From: Amoebophrya sp. A120
Taxonomy: Eukaryota; Protista; Dinoflagellata
Length of the DNA: 64,000 nt
Direction of reading: 5' to 3'
Assembly (NCBI GenBank): GCA_905178155.1
Contig: CAJINV010000008.1
Span: 558,001 to 622,000, forward strand
Numbering within the stretch: the stretch's first letter is position 1; the number at the start of each line of letters is the position of its first letter. The position numbers and the translations under genes were made by a program. A model generated the notes under the pieces. The model saw only the letters and a list, made by a program, of their open reading frames with translations. It had not been told where the DNA came from and did no database searches. Shown piece after piece: positions 11,674-59,453 of this stretch.

Positions 11674-13229
11674 TCACTTCTCCGCCAGCTCCGAACGGGC
11701 CCAGAAGACCGCGCCCGCACAGAGCACCGCCAGTCCCTGCGCAAAGAGCGTCATCTTGTGGCCCCAGAGGGGCGGAAATGGCGCCGTGAGGATGCAGAGC
11801 ACGCTGCACAGGTACGCTGTATCAAATGTAAAAATGTCTGGGTCTGGAAGATTCTGAGACTTGTCATGCATGTTTTGCATTGGCCATGATGTCTGTGATG
11901 CATGCCCTAGCATCACAGATTTTTTGAGGGCTTCGCGATGCCTATTCCGCATGACAAATGCCCTCTCCGCGTAGCAAAAATTGCATTCCCTTTGCTGCTC
12001 ATGCAATACAGATTTTTTTGGAATCCAAATTCAGCATCACAAGTTGCATTCTTCCAGACCCAGACATTTTTACATTTGATACGCTGCCATGGCGAACCAC
12101 TTGTGATTCCAGTACACAAAGCTATCAAGTGTAAAAATGTCTGGGTCTGGAAGATTTCTAGATTTGTCATGCATATTTTCCATGACACATGATGTCTGTG
12201 ATGCATGCCGTAGCATCACAGATTTTTAGAGCGCTTCCTCATGCCTATTCCGCATGACAAATGCCATCTCCGCGGAGCACAAAGTCTACTCCTCTTACTG
12301 GTCATGCAATACAAATCTTTTTCGAATCCAGAGACAGCATCACAAGTTTAGATTCTTCCAGACCCAGACATTTTTACAGTTGATAAAAGCTGTAGCAGTA
12401 CCACAGTCTGACCGACACCTTCCCGCTGATCCGTTTTAGCCTGCTCGCACAGGACTCGCCCTCCTCCGGATCGGGCTCACTTTCCGTACTTGCAACGGCA
12501 ACCGCAGGGGTGGCAAGCAGCCCAGTAGTCGCATTTGCAGGGGCCTCCCCAAGTCTCTCAGGCCGGGGTGGAATTTTTCCGAAGGCTCGCCCAAGTCCGC
12601 CGGTGAGCTGGGTAAACACTAGCAGCAACAGGACCAAATACCCGCTAGCCATGTGGACGAGGTTCGGGAAAAGCGGGTCCCAGACACCGTTGTTAAAGCC
12701 AAACTGTGACTTTCCCATCCTCGCGTGGTTGCGCCAGATAAAGCTCACTCCGACGAAAAACAAAGCCATCGCCGTGACTTGCACACCTGAATGAGTGAGA
12801 AGTGAGGATAGAGAAAAAAAATTGACTTCCGCCCCAACAGCAGTTTGCAATCGGGATTTCCTAGTCTTCACGCGAAGCGCCGTCAAAAGAATGCCTACAA
12901 AACTTCGCATATTGTAAAATACTCAAATGGACGTATTTTCTTCTGCCGACAGATGATGCGACTGCGCCGTCAGTGGAGAAATACTGGCGGGGAAAGGCGA
13001 CGAGTATGTAGCCAGCGCTCATGCAAGCGAAGCCAGAAACCATGCAGATGGGGTGCCATACAAACAGGTTGTCGAGGCCCATGTCGGCTGCAAACTTCAA
13101 AAGCACGGTAAGGATGAGCGCAACCGCGGCAGCCCCACTGCAGATGACGGTATATCGTGCCTCGTCCGGCAGGCCCTGCACCGCGTGCTTCATCCTTGCG
13201 GTGACATTCTCGGCAACCGCGGAAACCAT
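11674..13229 (-). CDS. Cytochrome b561 domain protein (4 exons)
   Basis: LFVWHPICM, YVHLSVQ, LVHMASG and reconstructed VYWNHKWF supply the four heme His. One canonical intron (12787-12922) and two TIR introns. Confidence 0.85.
11820..12081. mobile_element. IR introner (TATCAAATGTAAAAATGTCTGGGTCTGGAAG family), TSD CGCTG
   Basis: 31-bp perfect TIR; CGCTG at 11815-11819 and 12082-12086; removal restores MAA|YLCSVL. Confidence 0.95.
12123..12385. mobile_element. IR introner, same family, TSD AAAGC
   Basis: Near-identical TIR and homologous interior to 11820-12081; AAAGC at 12118-12122 and 12386-12390; removal restores CYSF|VYWNH. Confidence 0.95.
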
Positions 13230-13850
13230 TTTTTCAGATTGCCGTCACAAGCGTGATTTCTTGAGCAAGTGAAATCAACTTTACATCGATTTGCAATCTC
13301 GATTGGCGAGCGTAACGTAAACGAATTCAGGTGCAAAACAACTCCAGAAATTGTTCGAAAAGCGTAAATTTCGGGGGGGACGATAACTTTAGCTAATGTC
13401 TCGAACTACTACGAGCCGATTTTTATTCCTGATCTTTATGTTTATCTTCGTTTTCGAATCGGAAAATTTTATGCGTGTTGACGAAATCTACATAATTAAT
13501 CGACAGTGTGGTCGCTCGCTGTCGCTCTTGCGCTTATCTTGTCAATTCTCCTCGTTCAATCTTCACAGCAACGAGCAATAGAAAAAGAACAACTCGATCA
13601 TCTTCAAACATTGCCAAATCTCGTGACTAACGTCCAGAGCAGAATTGAAGCCTCCTGACTTTGATATCTTTTCAGAGGAAATTAAAGAAAAAAGCTAACT
13701 TCACCGACAAGATTTTTCTTGGAAAAAAACATGCAGGCATGTTTGCCATGCGTGTGCAAGTACTTATTCGGCCTGTATGACTGGATTCGTACCTTTCCTG
13801 AGAGATCAAGCAAAGGCAAACTAGATGCCGAAGCCCATTTTTACATTAAG

Positions 13851-15359
13851 TTACATTAAACCACAGCACGGCCCAGCTCTTCCGTTCGCACGGACCGCAA
13901 TATTGTGTGCGTCCTGTCGCGCTTTGCGTTCCGCCACAACTTGTTCGAGCCGCTGTTCGAAATTCTGCTTGAGTGCCTCGTAAGTGCTTGCGTTTTTTGC
14001 TTGCCACTCGAGACAGCAGGCGGGCGTCTTCGAAGGTGAGGGGTAGTAGATTGCGAGCATGGCCTTCTGCACGTCGTCATCTTGCAATACAGCTTGCCTC
14101 GCAACGCCGTCTTGTGCCTGTTCCGCGGCTACGTCCAGGACGTTCTCGATCACGTTCTCCTTCAGCCAGCCACACTCTCTCGTTCTCGAACAGCTGTCCG
14201 CGCGACCGTCCGCGGATTCTGCCAGCTCGATCAAATTCCAGTGATTTTCGGCCCAGCCGTCATCGATCCGTCGCACCGCATGTAAAATGAACTCCTTGCT
14301 CAGCTGCAGCGCATCGGCCGCGAACGCGAAGGGCTCTGCTGACGGATCCGAACTCACCGCGACCTTGCACAGCTCGAAGTCGGCTCGCGGGCCGTCGCGC
14401 GCAAACTCCAAAAAATTCCCGCTCTTCTCGTCCGGCACAGCGGCCGCGGGGTCGTTCGGATCTACGGCCGTCATCTGCAGCAGCTTTCGCAGGGACTCCT
14501 TGTCACTCTTCAACTCGCTCGAGCAAAACGCGAGAGCGTCGCAGGCCCCGAACTTCTTGAAGTAGGCAGCGCACTCCTGGAGCGCGCCTTCCGACTGTTC
14601 TGGCGGCTTTTCGAGCAATTCCAGCCGGTCCTCAACCCACTGCGTCGGAACATCTTTTTTGGCCTCCGCCAGGGCGCGCAGCTTGCTGCGGATCGCGTCA
14701 ATCCGCAGGCACTCGTCGGGCATCGCATGCACAAGGCGGGCAATTTCCCGCTTGTTGGAAACCTGGTCGACTTCATTGGAGAGCAACTGGTCCAAGGCGA
14801 GCACCGCAAACTTGACGTCCTGGTCCCCCTCCCGGTCCGCCTCCGGGTCAAAGTTTTTTAATTCGGCAGCGTCCCCGATCCCAGGTGGTCGCTTCAGCTC
14901 CTCGGGAAGAAACTTCCAGTACACCTGGCTGCTTTTCTGAATGCATTCCGCCATGAACTCGCGGTCCAGAAACCGCTCCGGGGGGGTGACCTCCAGCACG
15001 GTCAGAAGACCCTCCCGCTCGATCTCCGCCCGGGCGAATGCCGCCTCCTTCTCCAGGCGTTCCTGGTACGCTTTGGACAGCATCAAGTCCGCTTTCTCCT
15101 GCTCCTTCCTCCGCTCCGCGCTCCGCTCCGCCGCGAGCGCAGCCAGCCAGGCCTGCTCCTGCTCCTCCGGGTCGGGAACCTCCTCCCTCCGGCGCCGCCG
15201 CCGCATCCGACGACGGTACGCCAGGCTGGCGTGGTAGGGCGGACGGACGACGCGGCCCCTCAGCACCATATTAAGTACGGCACGGAGCAGAGAGCAACCG
15301 GTAAAAGCAAATAGAGAAACGCAAAAACCTACCTCTACAAGTGCCTGTGCTTCTGACAA
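13851..15359 (-). CDS. DUF4116-like repeat protein
   Basis: 502-aa ORF with repeats ALAFCSSELKSDKE, ADFELCKVAVSSDP..FAFAADALQLSKEFILHAV and DREFMAECIQ..KFLPEELK. Start uncertain. Confidence 0.6.
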   Translation of the reverse strand: MSEAQALVEVGFCVSLFAFTGCSLLRAVLNMVLRGRVVRPPYHASLAYRRRMRRRRRREEVPDPEEQEQAWLAALAAERSAERRKEQEKADLMLSKAYQERLEKEAAFARAEIEREGLLTVLEVTPPERFLDREFMAECIQKSSQVYWKFLPEELKRPPGIGDAAELKNFDPEADREGDQDVKFAVLALDQLLSNEVDQVSNKREIARLVHAMPDECLRIDAIRSKLRALAEAKKDVPTQWVEDRLELLEKPPEQSEGALQECAAYFKKFGACDALAFCSSELKSDKESLRKLLQMTAVDPNDPAAAVPDEKSGNFLEFARDGPRADFELCKVAVSSDPSAEPFAFAADALQLSKEFILHAVRRIDDGWAENHWNLIELAESADGRADSCSRTRECGWLKENVIENVLDVAAEQAQDGVARQAVLQDDDVQKAMLAIYYPSPSKTPACCLEWQAKNASTYEALKQNFEQRLEQVVAERKARQDAHNIAVRANGRAGPCCGLM

Positions 15360-15916
15360 TGCGCGCGCTGAGATCGTGTCTCTGCTTCAATTTCAAATGA
15401 AGACCAACATAGATACACCAATGCGATTGGGATGTTTTGTAGATGCGACCGATCGTTACGCTCTCTCTTAATTACTGCCCCGGTCGCCTGTTTGACGGAA
15501 CTCGAACTGCACCGTGGCCGTGCACTTCCTCTCATCAAATTGTCAATCACGTTCGTTCGTGTCACTCTGAGGTTTTCTTCGTTTGATTGACGGTTTTCCG
15601 CTACGCCGTCATCTGGTCAGGCTCACAACCGGACGAACATTAAACCAAGCATCCAGCACGTGTTTGGCCGACGTCGCTTTAACCTCGCATCTATCATGAT
15701 CAATGCTGTGTTTTATTCCGCAAAAGCAAAGCAAACCTGTTTGCAAGGTGCGGGCTAAAAACACCTTTTCTATATTGATTTTTCTTCTTGAGCGTTTATT
15801 CCATGTAGCATGAATGAATGTGCAAAAACGGCAGACAAGCAAAAGGGACATTTTGAGGAACGCAGCCTGCAGAAAAAATGCGAGTCGGTGTACAGCTCGG
15901 ACCGCCACTCGTTATT

Positions 15917-18372
15917 TCAGGTCGCTACGATTTCCGCGATGCTTTCCTGGAATTTCCTGATGTGCGAGCGCAGCCGCTTGTTCTCCTTCTTGATCATATC
16001 CAGGTCTTTGAGGACCACGGAGGTTTGCGTCCCGAACATCTTTTTGTCCGCTTCCACGTCCTTGAGCTCGAATTCCATCTGTTCCAGCTGTTCCACGAAC
16101 TGTTCTTCCTCCGCGCCAATCATGCCCTCTATCCTGAGTAAAAATGTCCCCACACCAGAGTCAAGATGGGGATTTTGCAGCACAAACCTAGGAGTTTTGG
16201 GAGTCACGCATGACAAGTTTCAGTCCGTAAGGTAGTGCAAGTTAGCAAGGAAAGCCGCATCACAAATCGATCTGCTGATCCTGTTTACAGCATTACAAGT
16301 TCCCAAACACGATCGAAAATGCCTGTCATGGGGTTGCGCATTACAAATGTTCCTGTCATGGCAAATCTGCATGACAACTCTGGGGTGGGTACGTTTTTAC
16401 TCAGGATACCCTCCAGAATGTACTTCTTGTCCTGCAACTGAATTTCTTCCCGCTTCTTCTCCTCGAGCCGCTTGCGGCACACAAGCATGTCTTTCGAGAT
16501 CTCGAAAATGCCGCCTTCGAGGTCTGTCATGTGAGGAACATGCTGGCGCGCAATTCTCGAAATAAATAGACATCGCGATCGGTTGGCGTTCGTCTTTCCA
16601 ACATATCATCGATGCTTGACATTGAGAAAGTCGAAAAATTCATTTTCATTCTGGTACAATTGTCAGATAAAAGTTTTAGGTTGGTGCTGCTTGATGCTCC
16701 ACCTCTAAGATTGATACCTTTGATCTTCTGAACATGTTCCTTTTCACGGGCGGTGAATGCGGTACTGTCGCGCTCGATGTTTTCCAGTGCACGCTTCTCG
16801 TCCCGGTCGAACTTGGCTCGGTCCACCTCCAAGCTGTCTAGGTACTCGGCGAGGAATTCGTAAAACGTTGCGTCGTCGAGCCGCTCCTGCTCTCGCTTTT
16901 TCTGGTCCACGAGCACAAAAATGGTTTCTTTCGGGAGCAAGTCTGCAGCGGATATACCCACCTTCACGTCCCCGATGGACCGCTTTTGTTTCTCCTTCGC
17001 CTTGCCACCACCGCCCTCCTCGTCGAGGTCTTCTTCTTCCATTTTATGCAAAGGCAATCAATCTCAATGCCCAGTCAGAATCGTGGGCTTCGCCGTCTCC
17101 CTCGAGGTGCGGTTCTTCGCATCTAGTACTAACACAAAACAAATTACACATGCACAACTAGTACTTCGTACCGTGCTACACATGATCCAACGTACACACA
17201 TTTCTGACAGACATTGAAGCGCTGTTTGCCAGTGTATTCTTCTTCCTCCTCCTCTTCCTCTTCTTCGCGCTCGTCCAGGTCCCCAGGCGATTCATCGTCC
17301 TCCCTGGAATTTTCGTTTGCTCGGTCACAAGTCTGTCACACCGATCCAGCGCAGCCAAGCCTTGTGCTTGTTCTGGCGCTCGACCGGAAAAATAAGTAAA
17401 TGTCAACCGAGAAAGGAAATAAGGCTGCCACAGCTGCTATTTTATCAGAATACTTTTTTTCAGCTTCCGGAGGCGGTTCGTTCTCCATTTTGTATGCGAC
17501 AGCTGCGCGATTTCTGCGGCAGCGTTCATTGATCTTCTCGAGCATTAGCTCCCCGCAGTTACAGCCGGCCAGCTTCATCACGTATATCGAGCCATTTTCG
17601 GCGAAGGCTTCTAGGATGTGTCTTGCCCCCTCCTCACCCAGTTCTGGATTGTTGGACAGGTTTAGGTGCGTGACCCCGACATTCTCGCGCATGAAATCTG
17701 CGATAGCCCGGCCGCACTCCGCGTTCAGGTGGTTCTGCTGCAGCTCCAGCCGCCAGATTGACACGTTGTCCGCCAACTTGTGCAGAAACTCCTTGTAGTT
17801 CTTCCTCCCCAGGTCGTTGTGCGTAAAGTTTAGGCACGAGATACTTCGGTTCCCACTCAGACCCTTAGTTTCAGTGTTCATGTTCTTTTTTTGAAGTTGT
17901 GCAAGTACCGATGATCGATTCTTGCCTGCTGTTATTTTTTTACACTTGCTCAAGTGGTTGCCTAGCTCCGCATAGGGCTGACGTTCGGCAGGCACACATT
18001 CACATGAGTACATGTACACACACTAGTATTGCACTGAAATTACGACGCTTCACGATGCAACATAAATCGCGATAAAAACGCTGCGTGAAGATGTTGAACA
18101 TGGTCGCTTCGACTTACCTTTGCCAGCTTGCCCAACGCTTCGCCGTCGATTCCCATCCCGCGCAAATCGAGGGACTCGAGAAAAAGGTGGTCCCGAATCC
18201 AGTTCGCAAAAGTATCCGGTTCCTGTTCGAGGTTCTGGCCCTCGAGGCCGCCAAACGAAAAACTGACGTGCGCCGCATACGACTGCCCAGACAACCAATC
18301 CTCAAACTCGGTGGTCTGCCGCTTGTTCACTTTTGCCTGGGAAGGCGACGAGGGAGTGCTTGGGGTCAACAT
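15917..18372 (-). CDS. Leucine-rich repeat (RNI-like) plus C-terminal coiled-coil protein; possibly two genes
   Basis: LESLDLRGMGI, VTHLNLSNN, LELQQNHL. Canonical introns 17864-18117 and 16524-16717, TIR intron at 16130-16408. Junctions around 17040-17460 unresolved. Confidence 0.65.
16130..16408. mobile_element. IR introner (TATCCTGAGTAAAAA family), TSD CCCTC
   Basis: ~32-bp imperfect TIR; CCCTC at 16125-16129 and 16409-16413; removal gives KKYILEG|MIGAEEE. Confidence 0.93.
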
Positions 18373-18794
18373 CTATTTCAGACTCGTAGGCATGTGCGAC
18401 ATGAAGATGAGGTAGAGGTACATAATCAACCAATAAAAGGCATCAAGAACTCATGAAGTGTCCAAGTAAAAGACCGCCGAAATAAAGCCCTTCAAGCTCA
18501 TCAACAGCACTTCGGCCAGAGTAGGTGCCGCAACCCAATGAATACTCACCGAATTATCAGGTCGTGCAGAAAAGTAGCATCGATTCCAGTTCCATCTGCA
18601 AGCAGAGCAAAGTACTTAGAAAGCAAGCGACAAGTAAAGAAGCAGTGGAAGATCACGACAAAGACACCTTTACGATAGGACCACGAAAAAAGCCGCAACG
18701 AAGCACACCATTTGCTACACGGATTCCAATGCGTCGACACCTTTGGCACACAGACTCAGATTATAATGCCTCGACACTTTGTAGTCGCAGAAAA

Positions 18795-20617
18795 TCACAT
18801 GACGCCAAAATTTTTTTTGATAACGCTGTTGAGTTCTTTAAAATCCAAGCCGAGTCCAAAATATTCTCCGGTTTCAAGCACAAAGAGCTTCACGCTCCGC
18901 ACGAGTGGATCGAATAGCCCGCCTAAGGGGACAACGGCATCACTGCTCCGATCATAGTACGAAAAGACATAGTCAAAGCCTGCCACTTGTGCCAGTGCGG
19001 CGCGCTGAGAGTCCAGCTGTCCGTCAAACGAGAAGTAGAAGTATCCTTGATCAAGAGCCGTGCCGGTTTCCGAAATCTGGTTCGAGCCTGCTTGTATTGG
19101 TATTAAATCAGCGGTCTGCGAGTGCGACGCAACTGACAGGACTCCGCTTACGTCAGTCGGTTCTGCTGCTATTCCGTTAAAATCCAAGTTGAGCAGAAAC
19201 CCTGTGAGCTGGCGATACACAAAGAACGTGACGGGGCGCGTAGGTAGCACCTGGTCAAACTATTACAGTGAAAAGTCCCCCCCACCCTTGAAATTGCAAA
19301 AATTTATTGTGATGCGAAGTTTCCAAATGAAAACTTTTTGTCATGCATGAAAGAAGTATGAATCTTTCTGCTGGAGAGTCTAGGCGTGTATCGCATCGCT
19401 TGCATGACAAGCGCCGCTCTTGCTGGGGTCTTTTGCAATACAAATTTTTGCTATTCACGATTGGCAACCTGTGATGCTGATAGCTGCAAGACGAGGGCGA
19501 ATGTTTCATTTGGAAAGGTTTGCAATACAAATGCTCCCAAGTTCGGGGGTGGGGGCATTTTTCAACTTGATACAAACCGGTAATGAAGGAGCGAAGCCTG
19601 CTGCTTCTCCACCTCAGAAAAATCCACCGCGCACAGAATCGCTTCCCATCCCTGCACCCATTTCTCCATGCCGTTGTAGTAGCCATTTTCCAGCTCGAGC
19701 GCGTACCGCGAATTGCGAAGGACCCCGGCTGCCGCCGCACGTTGCGGCTGTGCTTGTCTCGCATTTTCTGCGAGATGACCATCATTCCAATTCTCAACAT
19801 CATCGTAGAAAAACCCGAAGCCAGAGCAATCCTTTAAGAGTTTCTTCTCCAGAAAAAAGTCCACAGCCTCGCGCACACCCGGGTCGAAGCGCTCGGGCTC
19901 ACTGCCACGGCTTTTCGTATTTCCATAGTCCGGAAAGAGAATCTGTGTTCCCGGTCCGACGATCTTCGCCCCCCCTGTAGCCTCTGCCGTCACAGCACTC
20001 CGTGCAGTTGATTCCCCGTTTTCATCTTCCCTCACCTCAAGCAACAACAGGTTCAGAACGTCTGAAACAACCCGATCTCGAAGGTGGCTGGCATGCACAA
20101 GAATAAAGTCGTACGGCCCGTTTTTCCGGATCAGCGGCCAGCCGTAGGAGCTGCTCGAATACAGGTCAGCGTCGACAAAAAACGCGTTTGGCTGGTCTCG
20201 GATGGCCGCTTGGCAAGCGTCCACGTTTCGGTTGTCGACAAGGACGGACTTGGTGCGCACTGTCGGAACCACTCTACGACTAGCTTCTCCCGCGCCACAG
20301 CCGAGCTCGAGGTACGAGGCAAACCGGTTCTCCAGCGCAAATTCGCCTAATTGCCGATAGAACTCCGCGGTAAACGTTTCTCCGTGTGGATTGAATGCGG
20401 TGACTTCATCACGTTTCCCCCTTTGCTCGCTACTAGTGCCGGTCTTTGCGCTATACCACGCTGTGAGGTTCGCCTTCGCAATATCACGATTCTCCTGCTG
20501 TCCGGACGCAAGCAGAACCGAAGCGGGTAAGAGCGTGGCCAGCACGAGCACCCGCAGCACAGCGGCGCACGACAAGGAGCTACAGTCGTCTGCACCAAAA
20601 CACAAGTTCTGCCGCAT
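18795..20617 (-). CDS. Secreted/luminal class I SAM-dependent methyltransferase (Methyltransf_24-like)
   Basis: Signal peptide; YLELGCGAG, GPYDFILVHASH, ILFPDYG..PGVREAV. Continues through the TIR intron into 18795-19250. 3' end uncertain. Confidence 0.7.
19261..19572. mobile_element. IR introner with eroded TIR, TSD CAAAC
   Basis: TATTACAGTGAAAAGTCCCCC vs reverse complement TATCAAGTTGAAAAATGCCCCC; CAAAC at 19256-19260 and 19573-19577; removal gives HYRF|DQVLPTRP. Confidence 0.88.
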
Positions 20618-21337
20618 CCTGGTTGTATTCCCGAACGCAAACTGGAGTTAAAGTTCTTCAAAAGATGTAAGAAGCGTGTAAACGAACACAAAGCTAAAAT
20701 AAGCTCAAACAAAAACCTTTTTTAAAACCGGCGCAGAAAAGCATACGAGCCAGCAGGCCGAACATAGAAGTACCGTATCGAAAACGAAACCAGAAGATCA
20801 CGATCAGTCGTTGTGTTGTCATTATAGCACAGTAAATTACAAGCACCCCCCGCCGGGCGGCACAATAGTGCCCAGCCTTTCTATTTTTTGAATACTCCAC
20901 TTGAACACAGATTATAATACAAACATCGACGATCGCACGATGGTCAGTCGTGGGCACGCCGACTTTGCTGCGGCAGTAGTGAAAAATATACCTTTCCTTT
21001 AGAATATTGCTCCCTCACAGGGTGACGTGCACTTGCTGAAGTATTGAAATCATCTCAAGTGTGGTCACGAATCTGGCTACTGTGGGCCAGAAGTCAGAAT
21101 CACATTTTTCACATCGCAAACGCAAAAACAAAATAGAGAAGTTCGCTCAAAAATAAAATTCAAACGCTTTTCACTTCACTTCGAGGGGTGGTGGTTGGCG
21201 GTGGCCTCTTCGCATGTGGCTCACTAGACCGGGGCAGGGAACGACGCAACGCTATGCACCACGGGCACGCGACTACCAAATGCCAGTGTGGACGCCAATC
21301 CGGGCAGGAGCACATGCCCATTAAGCTACCTATTTGT

Positions 21338-23025
21338 TCACGATCCTGTTCCACTACCGGCCTCCGATCCGCGTAAAACATCAACCATGTCAAAGATGCG
21401 CTTCTCTGGCTTCTCTTCAATTTTCGCCAATAGCCACTCCGCAGCGTCCACCGCGCCTTCACCTGCGGATTCAAAGAAAAAGGCATAAAGTAGATTGATG
21501 ATATCGTCTGACATTATCGCATCGTGGATCCCGTGACAGCGATGAAGTGTGCAAAAAGCAATATACAGTAGCTTTGACGTCCGCAAACGTTGTGCTTGAA
21601 TTCGAAGACGACGTCTGCCACCTTGTCGCAGGCAATGCTCTTCTTTGTCAGCTGGTAGGTATGGAACGCGTGGCCACACAATGCGCTGTTTGGAATTGAA
21701 ATGTTGAAATGTACTTAAGTAGAGACAAGAACCAACTCTAATATGGCGATAATGCTACTGCGTAGAACAACACTTCTCTACATCAGTGGCAGAGCATGAT
21801 CCAACCAGAATAAAAAACGACTGGCGGTCAAAAGCTTCTAAACGTCGCAGCAGCACCTTTCTGGCACTTGCATTTCCTCCCGGGCACGCTGATCATCTCG
21901 AATTTTTTCGATGTTCTCGACGTCCGCACCCAGTATCTGCGCATGCGTTTTCTCTTTTTCGGATTCTTTGTGACTTTGATCGCCGGAAATGAGTCGTCTG
22001 AGATCTCGAACTACCTCTTTCGCGGTCCCAGACGTGTCCTTTTTCGTCTTCTGATGCGATTCTCGCACAGACAGCTCGTACCCCGCAAAGCAGCCGGGAA
22101 ACTCCTGGGCTGCGCGTGACAACATGGCTTGAAAGGCGACTATCTGCTTATTCATGTTCGGTGCGATGACCGCATATTGGTCTCTGAGGAGCAAGGACGT
22201 CCTCAGCTCCTCCAAAAAGGCCTCCCTCGCAGTCATTTTTCCTGTAGACGACGGTCCCAGTACAGTACCCGGCGCGTCGTCGAACCCCGTCGTGCCAAGC
22301 ACGAAGGAAGCCAGATGGTTCGCGTACAGCTTCGCATTTGCGCGCACCGCGGTCGGTGCCGTGAAGTCGATCACGACGAGTCTTTTGCCTTCCCGGCTAG
22401 CTGACATCTTCGCTCTCGCCATACCGGACTCGTGCTGGTCCGCAGCGTAAAGCTCGACCTGGAGTTTGGCACTGCCCGTCCGCTCGTCTATCACACTGAA
22501 ACTAGTCTCCTTCTTTCGAGAGCCGGTCAGGGAGGTCGGGGCCACAGCATACCCCCGGTCCAACGCAACCCGCGCAACGCCTGCGGCCATTTGCCCCGGA
22601 AGTCCGTTGATCATCAGCATCATCCTGTCCTGGGGTGCTCTGCTCGGGGAGTGCTTCCTGGTATGTTCCCCGGTGTGCTGTCTACGCTCAGCTTGCACGA
22701 CCGCAGTGTCAAGAACATGCTCCGAATCGCGTGCAGGTAATATTGTGTGTTCTGCGTCGACGGCCGCACAGCAGGCGGGTTCAGCGCGGGCTTCGGGCAA
22801 TCGGCTGGCACTCGACGTCGACGACGCGGCGGCGCTTTCGCCTTCCCCAGAAACCGACCCCGAAGCATCCTCGGGTTCGGCACGAACCATGGCGTTCCGT
22901 CTTGAATCAGGAGCGGGAGAATCCGCACGAAGAAGCAACCTCCGAACAGCAACTGCCTCCGAACAAGACAAGAGGATTAAGGCGCCTGAGATACGGCATC
23001 GCATTTTTATCATTAAGGATGCCAA
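21338..23025 (-). CDS. dapB: 4-hydroxy-tetrahydrodipicolinate reductase, plant type (3 exons)
   Basis: INGLPGQMA, VIDFTAP, FVLGTTG, VIAPNMNKQIVAFQAM, ESHQKTKKDTSGTAK, GHAFHTY, FEFKHNVCGR, EGAVDA..IFDMVDVL. Canonical introns 21686-21856 and 21463-21566. Confidence 0.92.
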
Positions 23026-23338
23026 AGTGAAAACAGGCTGACTGCGACGACAGGGTTCTTGTAGCTCTGGGAAGCGTGAAACACGAACCTTTCTGTTCCT
23101 TCGACGAGATGGATCGTAAAGAACCTAGCGCAAAAATAAAGTAGTTGTACTTACCCTAGCTGCCTTGGAATTCGAATCACGTCGTGGTCGCACTTCAAAT
23201 TAAATTGTTGAACTTCAGGCAGACCATCTTCGTCTTCGCGAAAAGCGAGCTTCCGGGACGGAACAGCGAACACTTCTCGACGCGCTTCAAAAAAGGCATA
23301 TGGACCTCTTTCATCGCAAAAAAAAACGCTGCCCGCTT

Positions 23339-25294: not shown

Positions 25295-25660
25295 TCACGT
25301 ATCTGTTACATAGTGCTGTTACTCCAAAGCAGAACGTCCGGGGAACCAAAATTCCGAAGACATACGATACTGTGACCGAATAGCCAACGCAGGCACCCAA
25401 GCAACAACGTGTACCACATAGACGGTTCCAAAAGATCTTATCTATCAGTCTCATTCGGGCAACATGTCACGAAACGTGCGAACGCATCGAAATCCAAAGG
25501 CTGGCGGACTTCACGACGGGCCTCGGCCTGCTGATAGACAATTCCTGGGATAATATGCGTAAATTTGTTCTTGCGTTTTTCTCTCGTCGTATCTACCTCT
25601 TGTCTTGAAAAGACTTGACGTTCGCAATCTATTCGGTTCTTCGCAGCCCTTACACTGCCT

Positions 25661-27991: not shown

Positions 27992-29588
27992 GATTGACTT
28001 GGTAGTTGTGCGGGCTTACAAAAGATGGCCGAAGACCTACTTACTTGAAATGGCTCACATCAGCAACAGGCCGGTGACACTATCGTGCAATTAGATACCA
28101 TACCCAGGTGCGAGATGGAACTAGACAAAAAAACGTTTTTTAACGAGCTACTGTAGGTCTCCTACAACCACCGGCGTCAAGTAGGAAAAGAGTGTGCCAG
28201 TTGGGTTCCTGACGTCGAAAAGCTTACAGTTGCAACCGTTAGGGTTAATCTGGACGTCAAGATGCTAATCGCTTGTGTATTTTAGGTACTTACGTCGAAA
28301 TGCACCACACTCACTGTATCGTTGCAAGTACGACCGACGATTCATTGAAGAATGTTCTTTCTTTTGCGATTGCTCCAGTACGATGCGGTGGCGAAGATTC
28401 ACCATCACCCAAGTCAACCGATATTATCTGTCAGTAGTACTGAAGCAGCCATCCGGCCATGGCTGCAGCCATAAGACCCCCACGATTCGACCCGCATGTC
28501 AATGTCGACGATTAGTCCCCTTGAGAGCCAGCAGCGCAAAACAACAATCGCTGTCGAAAGAGGAGCGGACGCGCCCGCACGAACGAATCCGGCGTCTTCA
28601 TCATTTCGTATTTCTTTGGTACATTTGAATGCGCATTTCTCGTCTTCGTTGTCGGTGAAACTAAAATGAAACAGCTACAACATTGTACAAGATCTTCTGT
28701 CGGTTTCCTTGGTGCGGCAAAGGCAATGCAGGTATCATATAGAAAATTCAGTCGAAGAGGATGAGGTGGTTCTATTGTGTATAGCCCGACCTAGTGTATC
28801 TATTGGACTTCGTAAAATTTGCTGAAAATCGACAATGGCTGATGTAAGAACCGTTAAGCACTTCAATTGTGAGAGGGTCAGAATGCACTCCTGCTTCATG
28901 AACGGAGATTGATTTCATGCTGTTTGCGACAATGCACTAAAAGGTTTTTGCATTTTAATCACCGGTCTACTTGGATGCCTCCCTACTGGTAGAGGCGCCC
29001 GATCCACTCCGCACGGTCCACGTACTGCCTCTGCTTCAGCAGCTGGGAGATGTTGTCAGCTATCATGCGGAAACACGTAACCAAGGCCGAAACAATTTGG
29101 CCTTTTGGCAATGGCAAATGCTGTAGACTACTTCTCTTCTGCGCATAGCAATAGCGACCGTCAGGATTCCATACCAACACTGCTGTATAAACTTGATGCC
29201 AAACATCATCGATGCTGGGCTACATGTTTCCTTATGATATTACCGCGAGCGTAAACATGGCCGAACACCCCGTCAGCGTATTTCCCTGGAATGAAACCAG
29301 TGTAGCCCGGTACGTCGGTCCCCCTGTAGAAATTTCGGATTTCTCTTCTCCTTTGCAAATCGAAATGCAAGTAGGCACAGATTCATTCCTTCACAATGCA
29401 TAGATATGAGCGTAACACATTCGCATTCCCTCAATCAGGAAGAAAGTACCTTCTGTGGGGCAGGGTGACACCGAAGGGATTGTGTCGTGCGTAATTGTGT
29501 GGCTCCTGTGTATACTGGTGGTCATCGAGTAGCCTCTCTTCGCACTTGATTGCTGCAAGCTGGTTTGAGCGATTGAAGGTACTGGAAA

Positions 29589-50907: not shown

Positions 50908-51248
50908 CTTTTCTTTACATGCACTGACAAAAGCACCCGCACCACATTCAGGCAGCTACGTGCGCTACGAGCATTTGTTTCCTTAGCAAAGCAAACCGGA
51001 AGACAAGTACACGAGAAAACAAAGAATAAAGTCGAAGAAACCGAGAAAAGCAAAAATGACTTGCAAGGCGGGACACCAGGTCTTCGATGCCTCGATTGAG
51101 CACATCAAGTCGAACACAGTGACACCTGCCCTCTGAGTCTCAGGCCACAGGGCTTGCGTCTTCAAGGGTACTTAGATGCGCTTGGCAACTTCAAGAATAG
51201 AGATGTCGCTTTTTTCATGTCATTTTTTGGCGTTCGCGGCAGTGCATC

Positions 51249-53618
51249 TCAGGCAGTACCAGGGATCTTTTTTTGCAGTTCCCGGACCTCGTTCAGCAGA
51301 AAAGCCACCCGCTCCAAGGGGAATAGCCTCGACTGGTCCGCCTGCGCCAAGGTCCGCTCTAAATCGATTTTTTGCCCGATCTTGTTCAAGAAGCGATCGA
51401 AACTCTTGACCTCTATCGCGACGAAAAAATCTCGGCATCGGTTCGAATACCACAACCGCAGCAGGTTTAGCGCGTACGTTAGCACCTCACTCGCATCCAC
51501 AAGCGAAAAATCTGATCCCAAGAAGGAATCATCCCCTTCCAGCAACGCGCGCAGCACGCTCTCAAATACCGCCGCTAGTCTCGCTTGTTGGTTGTTCTTG
51601 ATCCGTTCGACTCGGGCAATCTCGGCATCCACGGAGTTGCAACTAGTCCCTGTGCAGAGTTTTTCATCTCCCTGCGTACCAAGATCTTTGTGCGTTATCT
51701 CCATCTTCGCAAGGCAGTCCCAGAACTCGGCCTTCACGGAGCTTAGCACAGGTGGCAGCACTTGCTGGTGAGCGCTCGGCTTGAGGCAGTACTGCACCAC
51801 CGGCCTGAAATACTGATCCCAGCGAGTCTCCAGGCCGACCAGCTCCGCCTCCATCGGGCTATTCGGCGCCTTGTCGGATGTTGACTGCTGACGCACGTTA
51901 GCGGCCGCCCTGAATGATACCTCATAGAGGGCCTTCTCCATGTCGCGATACAGTACCGTGCGGGTCTGCGCATCGCGGACGTCCGCGTCTGCGGACTGGA
52001 GGAGGGCCGGCTCCTGCAAAACCAAAGGAGCCCCGGTCGTCGCCGCACTTATCTTTCGCTTCGGCTCGCCGTGGTCTTCGGGGACCGCCGTAGCAAGTGC
52101 CTTCAGAAACTCGAGGTAAAACGCTGGCGGCAGCAATGACAGGTGCCCCGACGGAGGCGGAGTGTCGCACATGACCACCTTCAGCAGGGGTCGGAGGAGG
52201 CTGTCCCACAGATGAAAGGCGGCTGCGAACTTGCGATGCACAAGCAACGCTTCGGTGGCGCACCGCAGATAGTCGTATCGAGTCGCATGGCTCCACACAC
52301 AGGGGAGGTAGGGACCGCATTTTCCGTCTACCTCTACGCTACCGTTTTTGATATTCGCACGTGCCGAAGATAAAACCGATCCGTGCTTATCACTGGGCGG
52401 TGGGGGATCCAGTGGCTGTAGTGAGTCAGCGGTCGTTGCTTTGCTTGTGCCGGAGGAGGCTGTCTCGGGGGAAGGGGCGGAAGTGACAACGGATGTCGTG
52501 CTCTGATTTTTGCGACCCCACACCAGCGAACTGCATTCGGCAAAGTACACGAAGCTGGCCAACCCCAACGGGGAAACTTCGTGCTCGGGCCCACTCTGAG
52601 TTGTCCGGCGAGGAGCAATGCTGGGCCGGTTACTGAAGGACAAGCACGCAGCGGCGCGACACAGGTAATCCATCTGCTGTCGTGTCGACAGTTGCATCTC
52701 GGCCTCGGTCTCGCCCGTGCGGCTCGACTGCAGCACGTCTTCGCATGCTGCAGTGTGCTGCTGTTCCCCTTCCCCCGTGTCCTCTACCAGCGGACATTCG
52801 GGGAAGTCTGCCTCGCCCCTTAGCGTTTTCCCAAAACACGAGAGCACGGGTCGTGACTCCTTATCTTCGCCACAACTCGCCATAAAAATCTTCTCAAACA
52901 GGGCGAAGACAAAGGTCGAAATCGCCTCGGTGGCCATCGTCTCTGGTAAAACGTCCTCGTGGGCTCCCTGCTCCTGCTGCAGCTCCCTCCCGTCTGGCGT
53001 GAGCACGAGGTTCCGCGCGAGCTGGAATGCAGGTCTCGCGAGATACTTCAGTGTCGTCGAAACACTTGCGTGTTTGAACAGCAAAAACGTGTGGGGTAGC
53101 GAATTGCACACGATCCGTGAACGGAAGCGCGTTGCCGGGAGTACGCGAATCTGTCGCACCAAGGATTCCGCGATCAGCCCTTTCGTCTCCCAGGTCCTCC
53201 GCCCCAGGGCGCCACCGGTTCCGGTCTCGCTGTTCGCAGAGGGCAGCATTTGCTGCTCGAGCAGAAAGATAATCTCTTTCGCCTTGTCACTTTTCCGGAG
53301 GAGCTGGGGCCAGTACTTCGTTCGCACGGGCAGCTGGAATCTCGGACAGTCGTGCAGGCGCAGCAGCGCGGGCACCATCACCTCAGCCAGGTGCTGTCCC
53401 GCCAACGCGTCCTTGGCCGACCATTCGACCTGGTCGAGTGCATCAATGAAAGGGCTTTGGCCCTCGGTGTTTGCGGTCGTGCCTGCGAGTGGTCCTCCAC
53501 TGGGGTCGGCAACAACGAATTGCTCCACTTCTTCGTTCACCAGCGCCTGCAATGTTTCCAGGTTCGGAATGTCCTTTTCCCGCTTCGTCGCGGAAGCCTT
53601 CGCGAAAAACCACTCCAT
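51249..53618 (-). CDS. Helical protein, glomulin/ALF4-like
   Basis: 789-aa intact ORF. C-terminal SLVDASEVLTYALNLLRLW resembles the glomulin family motif (recalled, not searched). Confidence 0.5.
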   Translation of the reverse strand: MEWFFAKASATKREKDIPNLETLQALVNEEVEQFVVADPSGGPLAGTTANTEGQSPFIDALDQVEWSAKDALAGQHLAEVMVPALLRLHDCPRFQLPVRTKYWPQLLRKSDKAKEIIFLLEQQMLPSANSETGTGGALGRRTWETKGLIAESLVRQIRVLPATRFRSRIVCNSLPHTFLLFKHASVSTTLKYLARPAFQLARNLVLTPDGRELQQEQGAHEDVLPETMATEAISTFVFALFEKIFMASCGEDKESRPVLSCFGKTLRGEADFPECPLVEDTGEGEQQHTAACEDVLQSSRTGETEAEMQLSTRQQMDYLCRAAACLSFSNRPSIAPRRTTQSGPEHEVSPLGLASFVYFAECSSLVWGRKNQSTTSVVTSAPSPETASSGTSKATTADSLQPLDPPPPSDKHGSVLSSARANIKNGSVEVDGKCGPYLPCVWSHATRYDYLRCATEALLVHRKFAAAFHLWDSLLRPLLKVVMCDTPPPSGHLSLLPPAFYLEFLKALATAVPEDHGEPKRKISAATTGAPLVLQEPALLQSADADVRDAQTRTVLYRDMEKALYEVSFRAAANVRQQSTSDKAPNSPMEAELVGLETRWDQYFRPVVQYCLKPSAHQQVLPPVLSSVKAEFWDCLAKMEITHKDLGTQGDEKLCTGTSCNSVDAEIARVERIKNNQQARLAAVFESVLRALLEGDDSFLGSDFSLVDASEVLTYALNLLRLWYSNRCRDFFVAIEVKSFDRFLNKIGQKIDLERTLAQADQSRLFPLERVAFLLNEVRELQKKIPGTA

Positions 53619-54527
53619 TGCGCTTTTACAAAAGAAAATAAAATCGGTCGATGAGTATGGGAATCTTCATCCAGGGGACTACGTAATAGGGCTGCGCGAG
53701 GTAACTATCACGACGTCCATGTCAGTCAATGGAGAGCCTCGTCCAGGTACGGAGAAAAGGGGTCGCGAAAAACCACTGAAAAAAAGTATCCTCTGCTGTT
53801 TTCAAATGCGAACCAGGGCTACGTACTTATTTGATGTGTTATTTTATTCATTGCTCTCAACTCTAATGAGAACTCGAATGATTTTGCAAGAATCAAGCTG
53901 AGCATTTGATGCGTTCCATGGGACCAGTCAATCACACCCACATTTGAGATCCCGTATCTACTGCTTGATCCTGAGTTTTCCTATAGCTCCTGCACATTTG
54001 ATGAAGAACGGCGTCTTAGTCATTGATCAAATTTGCACGAAAAATTCATTTCCAGAGGATCCGTTTTTACAGGTAAGAGCGCATTCTTCCATTTGCCACC
54101 TTGATCTGCCGTCTTTCTCAAAATGCCCGTGAGAGGCGTCAAGGGTTCAAAGACCACCTGAAGAACAGGCTCATTATCGACTTTCTCTGTCCTTTATGTT
54201 TTCTTGCCCCGGTAGCTGGCTTGAATAGCTAGGATGAACTACGATTTAAAATTGATTCGGATGGTGCGGAGCAATATCAGACGACAGATAAAAATTATGC
54301 ACTGTACAAACCACTGCAGCATCGTTGTGTCCGTCCCCGCTGCTGCGACATCATATTCTTGGTTCCGGTCGTGGGAAACTGCTAAAATCAATAATATTGG
54401 TCAAAACTCTGACTTTGTTTTCAACAGGGTTGCGATACGCCGCTCTTCCAGGTCACAGAAACCTTCGTGGTCAGCTCCTATGTTTATTTTACGCTGCTCG
54501 ATTAACTTCCACAGTTCTTTATTTTTT

Positions 54528-57500
54528 CTAATTGTACTGCGAGAAGAAAAATCCAAGATTGGAGTTGAATTCCTCGGAATTCCACTCCAGAGGCACATTT
54601 GACTTTCGTGGCTTTTCGACACGCGGCGCTGCCTCCGGCGCAATGCGTTCGTTGATCACCCCCGCAACCTGGGTGGAGTCCACGAACCGGAGCCGGTTTT
54701 CGACGGGCAAGCAGTTCTCGATCGCGGTGTGAAGTTTCTGCAAGACTTTCGCTTCCACTCGCCCCTCTTTGTGTTCGCGCGCGGTCAACAGCTCAAAGAA
54801 GGAGGTGTACATCCTGGACTCCTCCGCGCACAAATCCTCGCACTGTTTGCGCGCCCAACTGCGGATTTGTTCCACTTTTGTCAAGTACACCAACCGCTCA
54901 GACACCAGCGCCTGCTGCTCATCCAGCTGCAACGGCGTCGGTGGCCCATCCTCCTCGGTGATCATCGGCTCCAGGGGCCAGCAACACTTGTTCGCGTACT
55001 CCTCCAGTTTCGCCAAAAAAGAAAATTCGTACGTCGCACTGTCCTCGCTCCGCTCCCGCGCCGAGAATGGCTCCGCCTCGTCCTCCGCGGTGCCCTTCGC
55101 GATAGCGATTTTCTCGGGAAGCGGACGCGGTTCTGGGATATTCCGGTTCTGCATCAAGGCGTAAACGTTGCACAGCAGCTGGCTGGTCAGGTGATACCGC
55201 TCTGTCTCGACCGCAACCTGCAATTGCAATTATACGGCTAAAATTTGCTTAAGATCTCCGTCTTCATCCACGTCGAGATCGATGTAGAAAACAAAGACTG
55301 CGGTGAATACCGAGGAGGCCAATTATTTTTTTCCTTAAGATCAGTGCGCAAAAGAAATTAAGGTTAGGACAACATCTAGTCTCCGATCGTGCAAATTAAT
55401 ATCTTCGTTCGTGTGGGTGTGGCGTCTTCAAATCATAGATACTAGATGTACTCGATTACCAGAAGCTCGCTGGCAAGGCAGACAGTGTTGACGGCACCAT
55501 CGACAAACCCGCTGGTCTTGATGTCTTCTATGAAGGCCTGCGTCTCTACCCGCTTCTCCTCGCGGAAGGAGGCAAACTTTTCCCGCATCATTTGCAGTCG
55601 GAGGTGAAATTCTGCTCGCGGTTTATCGTCCAAAATCATGTGTGGGTACTCCGCGTTCCATGAGTTGTACGCTACGATGTACTCGTTGAGGAGGCCCTGT
55701 TTTTCCGGCTTCTCGCGCTCCAAAAATGACACGAACGATTCCCGCAGGTGCGACAATCCTTGGGCCGACTCCCGCAGAAGCTGTTCGTACTTTTGCAGGG
55801 CCAGTTTGCACTTCTCCACATACGGGTCTTGGATTTCCAGCCACTGGCCGTGCAGAAGTTCGAGGTACCGATGCTCCAGTTGTCCACACTTTTTCTGTAC
55901 ATCCTCCAGCGGCAGCAGCAACGACACAGCCTCCGGCTCCGGCACGGCCACGTCTTGTTCACTCTGTCCTGCAGCCGCTGCGTCTACTTCCGGCGATGAA
56001 GCTGGGGCGGCTTCTACAGCGACCGCGTCGACTGCCTGCGCCTGCTCCTCCTCCTCCCCTGCTGGTGGCCCCGAGCTGCTCGCTTCGAGAGCAGGCGCTT
56101 GATTGGTTTCCGGAACGGCTTCCTTTGCACTCGTTCGAGCTTCTAGCAACCCCTGCAATCGTTCGCGCACGTTTTCAAACACGTGCTCCGGTGCGTCTTC
56201 GCCGACGACTTGCAGCCGCGGCATCTCCGAAAGTGGCGCAAAGAGCTTCAAAAAGTCGAGCGTCTCGACCTGATTGACATCGAAGAAGTGCATACGCTCC
56301 ACAAACGTACCCTGCGCCTTCTCCTTCAGATCCAAGGCACGCAGGTTTTCGTACCGGATATCGGCAGGCTTCTTTTGCTGATCATCTGCCACGTTGTAGA
56401 CGGTTCTCGTTGTCAGGTCGATCCGCCGGCCCGCAGAGCGCAGCACCACCGCCTCGCAACTCGCTTCGAGCAACAGGTACAGGTCGTACCCTCCTTGTTG
56501 CGGGACGAACGGCTCCGGCACCTTTGCGGGCCCGGGAATCAGCAGCTCGACGGCCAACTTTCGCTGCGCACCCTCGGTCTCCTCGCACTGCGAGGGTTCG
56601 ATAAACCCGCACAGTGCTTTCTCCAAGAGCCGCATCTCCTCGAGCGTTGCAGGAAAGCCAGACAAGACCCACCCCGTCTTCATGGTCGGTTCCAGGCTCT
56701 TCAGCTTGCACACGATCATGCGGACGTACAGCTCCGGCGGTATCACCTCGCCTTCGTCGAGTAGCTGGACCGCGCGCACTCCGCACTCGCGGAGTTGCAT
56801 CAGGTACTCGTTCGCGCTGGCGTCCACACGCGGGGCGTGTGCATTGGCGTGTAGAGAGTCCAAGGACCCCTCTTGCGGCCGGCCCGCGAGGTTCATGGCT
56901 TGCTGGAGAATTTCCGTGCACTCCAGCGCTTCCACGCCGAATTCATCCGCAAGTTTTCGTGCCACGGTCTTCTTCCCGGCCATAGGCTTGCCTTGCAGAA
57001 CGATTCGCAGCGGCACGTCGGGCAGTGGATCCGCCGGAGGAATGATCTGCTGCGGCTCTGGGTACAGCTGCGTGATGATCTCCTTGAGCAACGTCGATAC
57101 CCGGAAGTTTGTCACGCGGCTGCTCACTACGTCAGGCTCCGGTGTTAACTGCAGCTTGTAGGCCTCCGGCAGCTTTTCCAGCTCTTCCTCCGTCAGTATT
57201 CTCCCCCACGGATTGTTCACTTGCTCTTCGTCCGCCCCACCTTGGGGGGCCTTTGCATCCTCCAACCTGTTCGCGCGAAAAATGGATGATCCAGTCACTG
57301 CCCACTGGTCCTTGCCGTGCAGGTAGCTTTCAAAACTTCCTTCGAGCAGCTCCGCAGACTCAAAATCGAGCTTCTGGGAATCGTCATATGGTCCCGCTTG
57401 GTAGGGCCGCGTGGCCGGCTCCTGGTGCTTCCGATACAGGTCCTCCAGCGGTTCGCTGTTAATGAAGCTATCCATCCAGTTTTTCCACGTTCGGTCGTCG

Positions 57501-59453
57501 AGGGCGCGTTGGTCCGTCAACTCCTGTTGCGCGTTCGCCAGGTTGAGGAGCTCGATCATGCTGTCAGTCACTATATTCTCCACCAGGGTGACGTGGTAGG
57601 CTCGGCGACGAGCAACTCGACCGCGTTCCAGCGCGCGGTACCACTTCGCATCGTTCACCTGCGTTGAACCGAACAACTCCTCCACCTGCAGGTCCCGCAG
57701 CTCCCCGTCGCGCGTCTTCTCCGCCTCGTTTTCCCTTTTCCGCTGCGCGTCGTAGTCTTTCATCCGCAGCCGTCGGTCTTCCCGCATGATGGCTTCGTAC
57801 CGACTGGTCTTCCAGACCAGGTAGTTGATACGCTCCTCTTCCACGCAAGGCTTCGTGAGCTGCTGCAACAAATGCTCCTGGAGGTAGGTATCCTCTTCCA
57901 TTTCGTGCTCCTTGGCGAGATCCACCAGGAATCGCCGCCGTCGCTTTTCCCGCTCTTTCCGGGCCAGGTTGCCGGAGACCTTGCTGTCCTTGATCCGTGC
58001 CAAAAAATCCTTTGCGTCCTTCAACAGCACTTCCGGAGCGGGGACCTGCGCGCTCATCGACGACATCAGGTCTTTGGCAGAAAAGGCTTTGGTTGTTCGC
58101 TGCACCAACGCCGCGCCGCCTCCGGTGCTTTCGTCGTCGTCTTCCGAACGACCGTCGTCGTAGTCTTGCTCTGTAGCTTCCTGCATGTCCAAGGGAATGC
58201 TGCTGCTCTCCGCCTCGCCGCTCGTAAACTTGCGCAGATTTCGTTCAAAGTCCGCGATGCCCTGCGTCACCTCTTGTGTCTTCGTCGCGCGAAGGTGGTG
58301 AACCGCTTGGCGCCGGCGGGTCGAGAGGCGCTGTTTGTAACTGGCCTCCAGACGCTCCCGGTGCCGCTGCCGGGAAAGGTTCGCCTTCCAGTCCATCACC
58401 CCCTGCTCGTTCCACTGGTCCATGAAGGCCCGGTTCCGCTCCACTATGTCCAGGCACACCTTGCGGTGCGTTTCGCGGTCGTCCAGCGCCTTTTCTGCAT
58501 CCACTTTGTCCATTTCCGCTGCGAGCATCTGCTGCGAGAGCTTTTCGCGTTCGAATCGGTTGTACCGCGCCTCCCGCCGCTGCAAAGTTGCGTAGGCGCA
58601 TTGGGCACGCAGTCGGTTGACGAAGAACCTGGACTCTTGCGCGTCCGCCGAGGGTTTGGTATCAAATGCAAACATGTCTGGGTCTGGAAACTTGTAATGC
58701 TGAGTGACTTAGCTAGCATGTGGAGGCCACAAATGCTGGCTCAGCATGGAAAAGTTCCTAGGCTTCTACGTGTATTCTGCATGACAAACTGCGTTTCTGG
58801 ATCACAGAAAAATAGGGCTTTTGGGTAAAAACGAGCATGACAGACTTAAGAGTCTTGCTAGCCTAGCATGACAAAACCTTTCCAGACCCAGACATATTTG
58901 CATTCGATATTTGGGAAGACGAAACGACCGCGCAAGCATTTTGGGATCTTTCACTATCAGACTATCGCTGTGCTGGCTCGCCGGCATGCTGGGACGCTGC
59001 GTCATTGCCACGCGGTCTATCACCATCTTGATCTGGTACAGCAGCTTGAGTGCGCATCCCCGCTTTTTGCTCATGATCGCTTCTGCGTCGTGCGGGAGGA
59101 AGCGAATTCTATCCTGTGCAAAAGTATCGTACTCGTATAAATGCATTACAAATTTCCTCAGCAAGAGAAATAAAATTTGTAATGCTGATTTGCCTTTAAT
59201 GCATGACTGCAATACGAGTACGATACTTTTGCAGAGGATAAATTCCGAGGTTCTTCAGATTCGGCTGCAGCTCCGTGAAGTTCGCAATTTGGTCATCGAT
59301 CAGATCGGTGTCTCGAAACCGGCCGGGGAACTCGAGCTGCTGATTGAATTTCGACAGCAGCGCACCAATCTTGTACCCGTTCGCAAGATCGGCCTCCTCC
59401 TTCGCGTCACTGCCGCCGTACTCCTGCACCCACTTCCAGAGAACCTCCGTCAT
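54528..59453 (-). CDS. SPEF2: Sperm flagellar protein 2-like (CH domain, coiled coil, adenylate-kinase-like domain)
   Basis: DLANGYKIGALL..NFTELQPNLKNLGI..ALKLLYQIK; GKPMAGKKT; GWVLSGFPAT. Two TIR introns and an intron at ~55220-55460. Further 3' exons probably extend to ~53900. Confidence 0.8.
58660..58909. mobile_element. IR introner (TGTCTGGGTCTGGAA family), TSD TTTGG
   Basis: TIR related to the 11820 and 12123 elements; TTTGG at 58655-58659 and 58910-58914; removal gives FRLPK|PSADAQ. Confidence 0.94.
59110..59240. mobile_element. IR introner (TATCCTGTGCAAAAGTATCGTACTCGTAT), TSD AATTC
   Basis: 29-bp TIR with 1 mismatch; AATTC at 59105-59109 and 59241-59245; removal gives NLGI|RFLP. Confidence 0.94.

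What the first reader, a model, noticed from the sequence alone, without database searches (positions are those of the whole stretch)
11815..59245. MITE-like introns with TAT...ATA ends and 5-bp target duplications, with no GT-AG in any register
Seen: six elements (11820, 12123, 16130, 19261, 58660, 59110) with ~30-bp TIRs and exact 5-bp duplications (sense strand CAGCG, GCTTT, GAGGG, GTTTG, CCAAA, GAATT). Removing the element plus one duplication restores the frame and recognisable protein motifs every time. Sliding the boundary through the duplication never gives GT-AG or GC-AG. Known: inverted-repeat non-canonical introners are described in Amoebophrya, and as far as I know their excision mechanism is unresolved. 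Inferred: the TIR stem rather than splice dinucleotides defines the boundaries, implying an unconventional splicing route, or possibly DNA-level excision.
Basis: partly seen in the sequence, partly recalled or inferred. Interest (0 to 1): 0.88.

Follow-up and report, generated by a model that had tools for sequence, protein, structure and literature searches.

The report
Transposon introns without splice signals
Six small hairpin-ended transposons sit inside protein-coding genes of a parasitic marine alga-relative (Amoebophrya), and at least two are missing exactly from its transcript assemblies although no cut position offers the usual splice signals; this intron class is already described in this organism, and how it is cut out is still unknown, likely by a machine that reads the hairpin ends.

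Summary
All six elements have TAT...ATA ends, 22-32 bp inverted repeats and exact 5-bp duplications, and no register gives GT-AG, GC-AG or AT-AC. A seventh (7013-7683) has TAC...GTA ends. Two spliced genes match deposited Amoebophrya sp. A120 proteins letter for letter, and Farhat et al. 2021 describe this intron class there, so it is known. DNA-type contigs keep the elements, so routine DNA excision is not supported. Not found in the papers I read, from related loci (DNA only): one family sits in both orientations about equally (35:33), the duplication has no base bias (GT-AG possible in 9 of 134, antisense 5), and a 9-bp internal motif recurs at 31-33 bp spacing. Boundaries are therefore likely set by the symmetric ends. 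The catalyst is untested. This scan noted similar hairpin introns in two other dinoflagellate genomes (unchecked notes).

The parts
11820..12081 (-). E1, 262-bp element, 32-bp TIR, duplication CAGCG (sense); 267 nt removed
   Evidence: RNA-type contig length fits exact loss
12123..12385 (-). E2, 263-bp element, 86% identical to E1, same orientation, duplication GCTTT; 268 nt removed; 36-nt exon between E1 and E2
   Evidence: contig length fits
16130..16408 (-). E3, 279-bp element, duplication GAGGG, in the coiled-coil tail of an LRR-type gene; 284 nt removed
   Evidence: four relatives align without a gap across the junction; no RNA joint seen
19261..19572 (-). E4, 312-bp element, duplication GTTTG; 317 nt removed
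   Evidence: spliced product identical to A120 protein P0003, A25 orthologue aligns across; no RNA joint seen
58660..58909 (-). E5, 250-bp element with E1-type TIR, duplication CCAAA, in SPEF2; 255 nt removed
   Evidence: joint 58654 to 58910 in 4 of 4 RNA-type runs; A25 orthologue colinear
59110..59240 (-). E6, 131-bp near-palindromic element, duplication GAATT, in the CH domain of SPEF2; 136 nt removed
   Evidence: joint 59104 to 59241 in 4 of 4 RNA-type runs
7013..7683 (-).
   Evidence: removal joins two frames; an RNA-type contig stops at 7684, the predicted junction, with 16 nt left unlaid
54232..59810 (-). SPEF2/CPC1 host gene (1430 aa) with E5, E6 and two GT-AG introns (55218-55459, 59488-59647)
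   Evidence: one RNA-type contig spans all four joints in 3 of 4 runs, three joints in the fourth
11141..13433 (-). Host transcript of E1 and E2 (predicted membrane protein) with a GT-AG intron at 12787-12922

Best explanation
These are miniature DNA transposons of Amoebophrya sp. A120 that interrupt coding exons and are removed from the transcript as element plus one 5-nt duplication (seen directly at two sites), likely by a cut-and-join activity that reads the paired, symmetric ends of the element and not GT-AG. Shown: anatomy, exact loss at E5 and E6 in transcript contigs, retention in DNA contigs, no canonical pair in any register. Inferred: an unknown transposase inserts them with a 5-bp stagger, probably binding the 9-bp internal motif spaced three helical turns apart; in the pre-mRNA the two ends pair into a stem of about 30 bp; the two cuts fall beside the stem with offsets that sum to 5 nt, so the old exon is rebuilt whichever way round the element lies. 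Odds by step: known A120 introner class 0.95; exact removal at RNA level 0.9; boundaries set by the ends 0.8; catalyst other than the U2 spliceosome (endonuclease plus ligase, intron released linear or circular as reported for euglenids) 0.5.
For: Joints 58654-58910 and 59104-59241 in 4 of 4 RNA-type runs (2 samples, 1 study), on contigs that also lack GT-AG introns, with zero depth in two intergenic bins. A 1622-nt contig lacks 671 nt = 267+268+136. Retaining E5 or E6 cuts SPEF2 from 1430 to 171 or 85 aa. Related loci: flanks are in frame after removing element+5 in 112 of 132 scored cases; E1-family orientation to the inferred coding strand 35:33, 27:30, 21:24, 15:14 at rising stringency and 16:19 with locus-level agreement; in L005 two family members in opposite orientation lie in one 877-aa frame. 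No base bias in the duplication: G before TAT 42 of 134, antisense equivalent 41; GT-AG available in 9 of 134, antisense 5. Folding z = -11.3 (E6) and -8.1 (E5), ends paired. U1 snRNA not detected in A120 (PMC7789003 section 10).
Against: Nothing here identifies the catalyst. The 3' arm carries a U-run and AUA in both orientations, so a rewired spliceosome reading symmetric signals is not excluded. Stem positions 4, 5 and 7 are mismatched in 38, 34 and 59% of 208 elements, so a perfect stem end is not the ruler. RNA evidence is Logan contigs of runs only guessed to be RNA, all cDNA-based; direct joints for 2 of 6 elements. Orientation and bias results are from DNA of loci of unknown strain with strand called by my own codon model (71 of 89 within-locus pairs agree). 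A120 has nearly all spliceosomal proteins and U2, U4, U5, U6.
Confidence: 0.5

Rival explanations
1. A rewired U2 spliceosome without U1 removes them as lariats; the hairpin brings the ends together or the symmetric ends supply donor-like (N-UAU) and U-rich acceptor-like signals.
For: Spliceosome nearly complete, U1 not found, authors propose this (PMC7789003). One register gives an invariant U at intron position +2. A review reports spliceosomal removal of MITE-derived non-canonical introns in Fritillaria (PMC11282704 passages).
Against: No enrichment of GT or AG in the duplication in 134 insertions; no orientation bias; the end signals would be buried in a stem of about 30 bp.
Confidence: 0.35
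2. The elements are excised from DNA in the transcribing nuclei (as ciliate IESs are), leaving one duplication.
For: Element-plus-one-duplication loss is what precise excision would leave; orientation-blindness and the 31-33 bp phased motif suit a DNA-binding enzyme.
Against: In the DNA-like run X5 (depth 41-53 on unique sequence) flank contigs run unbroken into all of E1-E4, and none of the 15 joints shown (145 hidden) is an empty site. That run may be the window's source, covers one sample, and contigs drop rare variants. E5 and E6 were not tested in DNA.
Confidence: 0.05
3. The joints are reverse-transcriptase template switches across a hairpin flanked by short direct repeats, and the real mRNA keeps the element.
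For: Hairpin plus direct repeat is the textbook substrate (recalled); cDNA-only false introns are documented (PMC8240250 abstract). All RNA data here are cDNA-derived.
Against: Retention would truncate SPEF2; relatives are colinear across E3-E6; the main contig takes the spliced path at both sites in 4 of 4 runs; frames are kept at insertions whose duplication is imperfect (15 of 18 one-mismatch cases).
Confidence: 0.05

Closest known systems
Introner elements (IEs) among the non-canonical introns of Amoebophrya sp. A120 (Farhat et al. 2021, PMC7789003; families also in Gozashti et al. 2025, PMC12130899)
   Same: Same host; inverted repeat starting TAT, seven looser bases, then at least three A; 5-bp direct repeats (their Fig. 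S19 legend); non-canonical borders; about 240-280 bp; RNA-supported.
   Different: Nothing in kind. The repeats here are 22-32 bp against the 8-20 nt stated. Orientation-blindness, absence of base bias and the phased internal motif were not in the parts I read; figures could not be seen.
Euglenid nonconventional introns (PMC12501133 and PMC11282704, passages)
   Same: MITE-like origin, paired ends, direct repeats at borders, coexist with GT-AG introns, machinery unknown.
   Different: Their stems carry CAG/CTG near the ends and borders show a base consensus; circles were shown there, untested here.
Fritillaria borealis MITE-derived introns (via review PMC11282704)
   Same: TIR and TSD, non-canonical borders.
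   Different: AG-AC/AG-AT prevail there; no preferred pair here.
Aureococcus and Micromonas introners (Huff et al. 2016; recalled, and summarised in PMC7789003 section 16)
   Same: MITEs removed exactly with one duplication.
   Different: They use canonical splice motifs; these do not.
IS3EU/GingerRoot DNA transposons (PMC10045372, passages)
   Same: TA..TA termini.
   Different: Usually 6-bp duplications; here 5 bp. No transposase found, so a lead only.

Membership tests
Amoebophrya A120 introner elements | Host genome is A120 | tested here: met
   Spliced SPEF2 (1430 aa) and E4 gene (501 aa) identical to named A120 proteins
Amoebophrya A120 introner elements | IR starts TAT, seven looser bases, then three or more A | tested here: met
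   6 of 6; the seventh element E0 starts TAC and does not fit
Amoebophrya A120 introner elements | Direct repeat of 3-5 nt at the borders | tested here: met
   5 bp exact in 7 of 7; 162 of 208 filtered elements in related loci
Amoebophrya A120 introner elements | Non-canonical junction supported by RNA | tested here: met
   Direct for E5, E6; by length for E1, E2; none seen for E3, E4
Amoebophrya A120 introner elements | Repeated in the genome | tested here: met
   E1/E2 86% identical; summed contig depth over elements thousands of times the flanks in X5
MITE (non-autonomous TIR DNA transposon) | Short, TIR, fixed-length TSD, no coding capacity, many copies | tested here: met
MITE (non-autonomous TIR DNA transposon) | Autonomous partner with the same ends | not testable with these tools
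   No genome held; four longer copies (457-972 bp) were only read by eye
U2 spliceosomal intron | GT/GC-AG borders | tested here: not met
   0 of 7 in any register; chance level in 134 related insertions
U2 spliceosomal intron | Lariat formation, spliceosome dependence | not testable with these tools
   Needs lariat sequencing or inhibition
U12 intron | AT-AC or GT-AG borders and minor snRNAs | tested here: not met
   No AT-AC register; U11, U12, U4atac, U6atac reported absent
Euglenid nonconventional intron | CAG...CTG near the ends | tested here: not met
   Ends are TAT...ATA
Euglenid nonconventional intron | Excision as full-length circle | not testable with these tools
   No raw reads of this strain were available
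IS3EU/GingerRoot | TA..TA termini | tested here: met
IS3EU/GingerRoot | 6-bp TSD | tested here: not met
   Exact 5-bp repeat in 177, 6-bp in 1, of 345 raw candidate pairs
Programmed DNA elimination (IES-like) | Empty sites in genomic DNA | tested here: inconclusive
   None seen in one DNA-like run for E1-E4; other life stages untested

The most novel reading that the evidence does not exclude
Amoebophrya runs a second, spliceosome-independent splicing system that removes any insertion bounded by TAT...ATA hairpin ends, in either orientation and blind to border bases, cutting at a wandering position inside the duplicated 5-mer so that both copies stay under coding constraint (hint: 9 of 15 single mismatches between the copies are synonymous). 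It would make transposon insertion into exons nearly harmless genome-wide.
Probability: 0.3. Interest if true: 0.8.

Novelty: already known. Interest (0 to 1): 0.33.

Why it matters
How tens of thousands of introns without GT-AG are removed in Amoebophrya is an open question. The class itself is published. What this adds is a set of constraints: removal length fixed at element+5, no border-base preference, no orientation preference. These narrow the candidates and give cheap genome-wide tests with existing RNA-seq, above all insertions with imperfect duplications, where the cut position becomes visible.

Tried and rejected
No whole genome held, so no transposase or snRNA search. No listed holder is on record as RNA. 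In one search the DNA-like run swamped the joint table, so E1-E4 joints were not displayed. Orientation cannot be judged inside the window: E5 against E1 scored 26 same, 8 opposite. The L005 frame has no homologue among longer proteins and no Pfam hit, so it rests on frame length alone. Fixing the cut register from imperfect duplications failed: no case gave a stop in one register; the synonymous excess is weak (P 0.003-0.015 against one free copy, 0.013-0.20 against fixed-register models, n = 15). Nested or recursive GT-AG splicing rejected by reasoning: the outer borders would still need GT and AG. TIR pattern: 0 hits in viral contigs. Literature: no paper held Amoebophrya + intron + direct RNA + nanopore from 2021; Amoebophrya + splicing mechanism + non-canonical gave 3. 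Subscription papers (Roy 2023, Huff 2016, Henriet 2019) were not read; supplementary figures of PMC7789003 are pictures and may already show some of my 'new' points.

Full report
Observation. All six elements are at the stated places, with TAT...ATA ends, 22-32 bp inverted repeats and exact 5-bp flanking duplications. A seventh, 7013-7683, has TAC...GTA ends and an exact 5-bp duplication. The same criteria give 7 hits in the window and 0 in 97, 1 in 3 of 100 shuffles. All host genes are on the minus strand. Listing every equivalent cut position, including the longer repeats at E1 (7 nt), E2 and E0 (6 nt), gives no GT-AG, GC-AG or AT-AC.

Host and frames. Removing E5, E6 and a GT-AG intron from the SPEF2 coding region yields a 1430-aa protein identical to a named Amoebophrya sp. 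A120 record; the A25 orthologue is colinear at both junctions; retention truncates it to 171 or 85 aa. The E4 gene gives a 501-aa protein identical to another A120 record. Four relatives align without a gap across the E3 junction. E1 and E2 removal gives a 299-aa frame, E0 removal a 413-aa frame. The A120 records are gene models, probably of this same DNA, so they fix the organism but are not independent proof of splicing.

RNA and DNA. In 4 of 4 RNA-type runs (2 samples, 1 study; type guessed by the tool) one contig skips exactly 255 nt at E5 and 136 nt at E6, and also GT-AG introns of 242 nt (4 of 4) and 160 nt (3 of 4); two intergenic bins have no depth. So the same mature transcripts use both kinds of junction. 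For E1 and E2 a 1622-nt contig lacks 671 nt, the sum of 267, 268 and a 136-nt GT-AG intron. No joint was displayed for E3 or E4. In a DNA-like run, flank contigs run into E1-E4 at full depth and none of the 15 joints shown (145 hidden) is an empty site; this is one sample and contigs drop rare variants.

What is known. Farhat et al. 2021 (PMC7789003; I saw the abstract, sections 10, 16, 20, passages of others, and supplement passages) report that over 60% of A120 introns are non-canonical, that introner repeats start with TAT, seven looser bases and at least three A, with 3-5 nt direct repeats (5 bp in their example), that U1 was not detected, and that the mechanism is open. Gozashti et al. 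2025 (PMC12130899; passages and one part of one supplementary table) list A120 TIR families of about 250-280 bp with about 30-bp TIRs. Two reviews repeat this (passages). The finding is therefore a set of members of a published class in the published host.

Extra constraints from related loci. Of 345 raw end pairs, 208 passed my filters (TAT/ATA, under 450 bp, A-run at both ends); 162 have perfect duplications; 200 had enough flank, 166 got a strand call, 132 an independent phase call, of which 112 are in frame after removing element+5. E1-family orientation to the coding strand is near even at every threshold (37:37, 35:33, 27:30, 21:24, 15:14, 16:19), and, free of strand calls, 3 of 7 same-family pairs within one long frame are in opposite orientation, as in L005. 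The duplication shows no base preference; GT-AG is possible in 9 of 134, 5 on the antisense strand, GC-AG in 0. A 9-bp motif (GCAWNACAR) occurs 29 times in the six elements and 12 times in the other 61.8 kb, and in 207 of 208 related elements with commonest spacing 31-33 bp (copies are not independent). That phasing suggests DNA-binding sites for the mobilising enzyme (inference). Nine of 15 single mismatches between duplication copies are synonymous, a weak excess.

Mechanism. Insertion is by an unidentified transposase with a 5-bp stagger; TA..TA ends recall IS3EU/GingerRoot, which usually make 6 bp (PMC10045372 passages). Removal is at RNA level and is keyed to features that are the same in both orientations, hence the ends. 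E5 and E6 fold with ends paired (z -8.1, -11.3), though stem positions 4, 5, 7 are often mismatched. With no trace of dinucleotide selection I favour a cut-and-join activity apart from the U2 spliceosome (0.5), as proposed for euglenid introns (PMC12501133 passages), over a U1-less spliceosome reading symmetric signals (0.35). DNA excision and reverse-transcriptase artefact are each about 0.05 and not formally excluded.

Verdict. Real, correctly read, already known. Interest 0.33, for the open mechanism and the testable constraints.

Noticed in passing
window 5150-6590: A 48-bp direct repeat (5150-5197, 6543-6590) brackets about 1.35 kb holding a palindromic repeat array (with an assembly gap at 5725-5758). 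Deleting one unit together with E0 gives one 483-aa frame. Possibly a second kind of insertion with a long duplication; splicing untested.
   Followed up: partly
window 38751-39889: A 56-bp direct repeat brackets a GC-rich insert of about 1 kb with internal repeats, upstream of a nucleotide-sugar transporter gene.
   Followed up: no
window 29061-29239: Degenerate TAT...ATA element, 13 of 16 end bases paired, duplication with 2 mismatches; possibly an old copy.
   Followed up: no
window 7013-7683: TAC...GTA element of 671 bp without the internal motif, with an inner inverted repeat (7281-7415); likely a different transposon group removed the same way.
   Followed up: partly
window about 60215-63880, minus strand: A long open frame of 1223 codons, covered by unbroken RNA-type contigs; I took it for a PRP16-like splicing helicase from motifs read by eye, not confirmed by a search.
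   Followed up: no
L017:724-2472: Six elements of several TIR types within 2 kb, one frame of 184 aa running through them after removal.
   Followed up: partly
L074:1501-2472, L050:1815-2445, L048:571-1051, L026:1814-2270: Longer copies (457-972 bp) with perfect duplications and foreign internal sequence.
   Followed up: no
window 20993-21500: About tenfold raised depth in the DNA-like run: a further repeat of unknown kind.
   Followed up: no
window 11820 (run X8): Five raw reads of a 2026 RNA run carry the E1-type end with other flanks: related elements in that sample.
   Followed up: no
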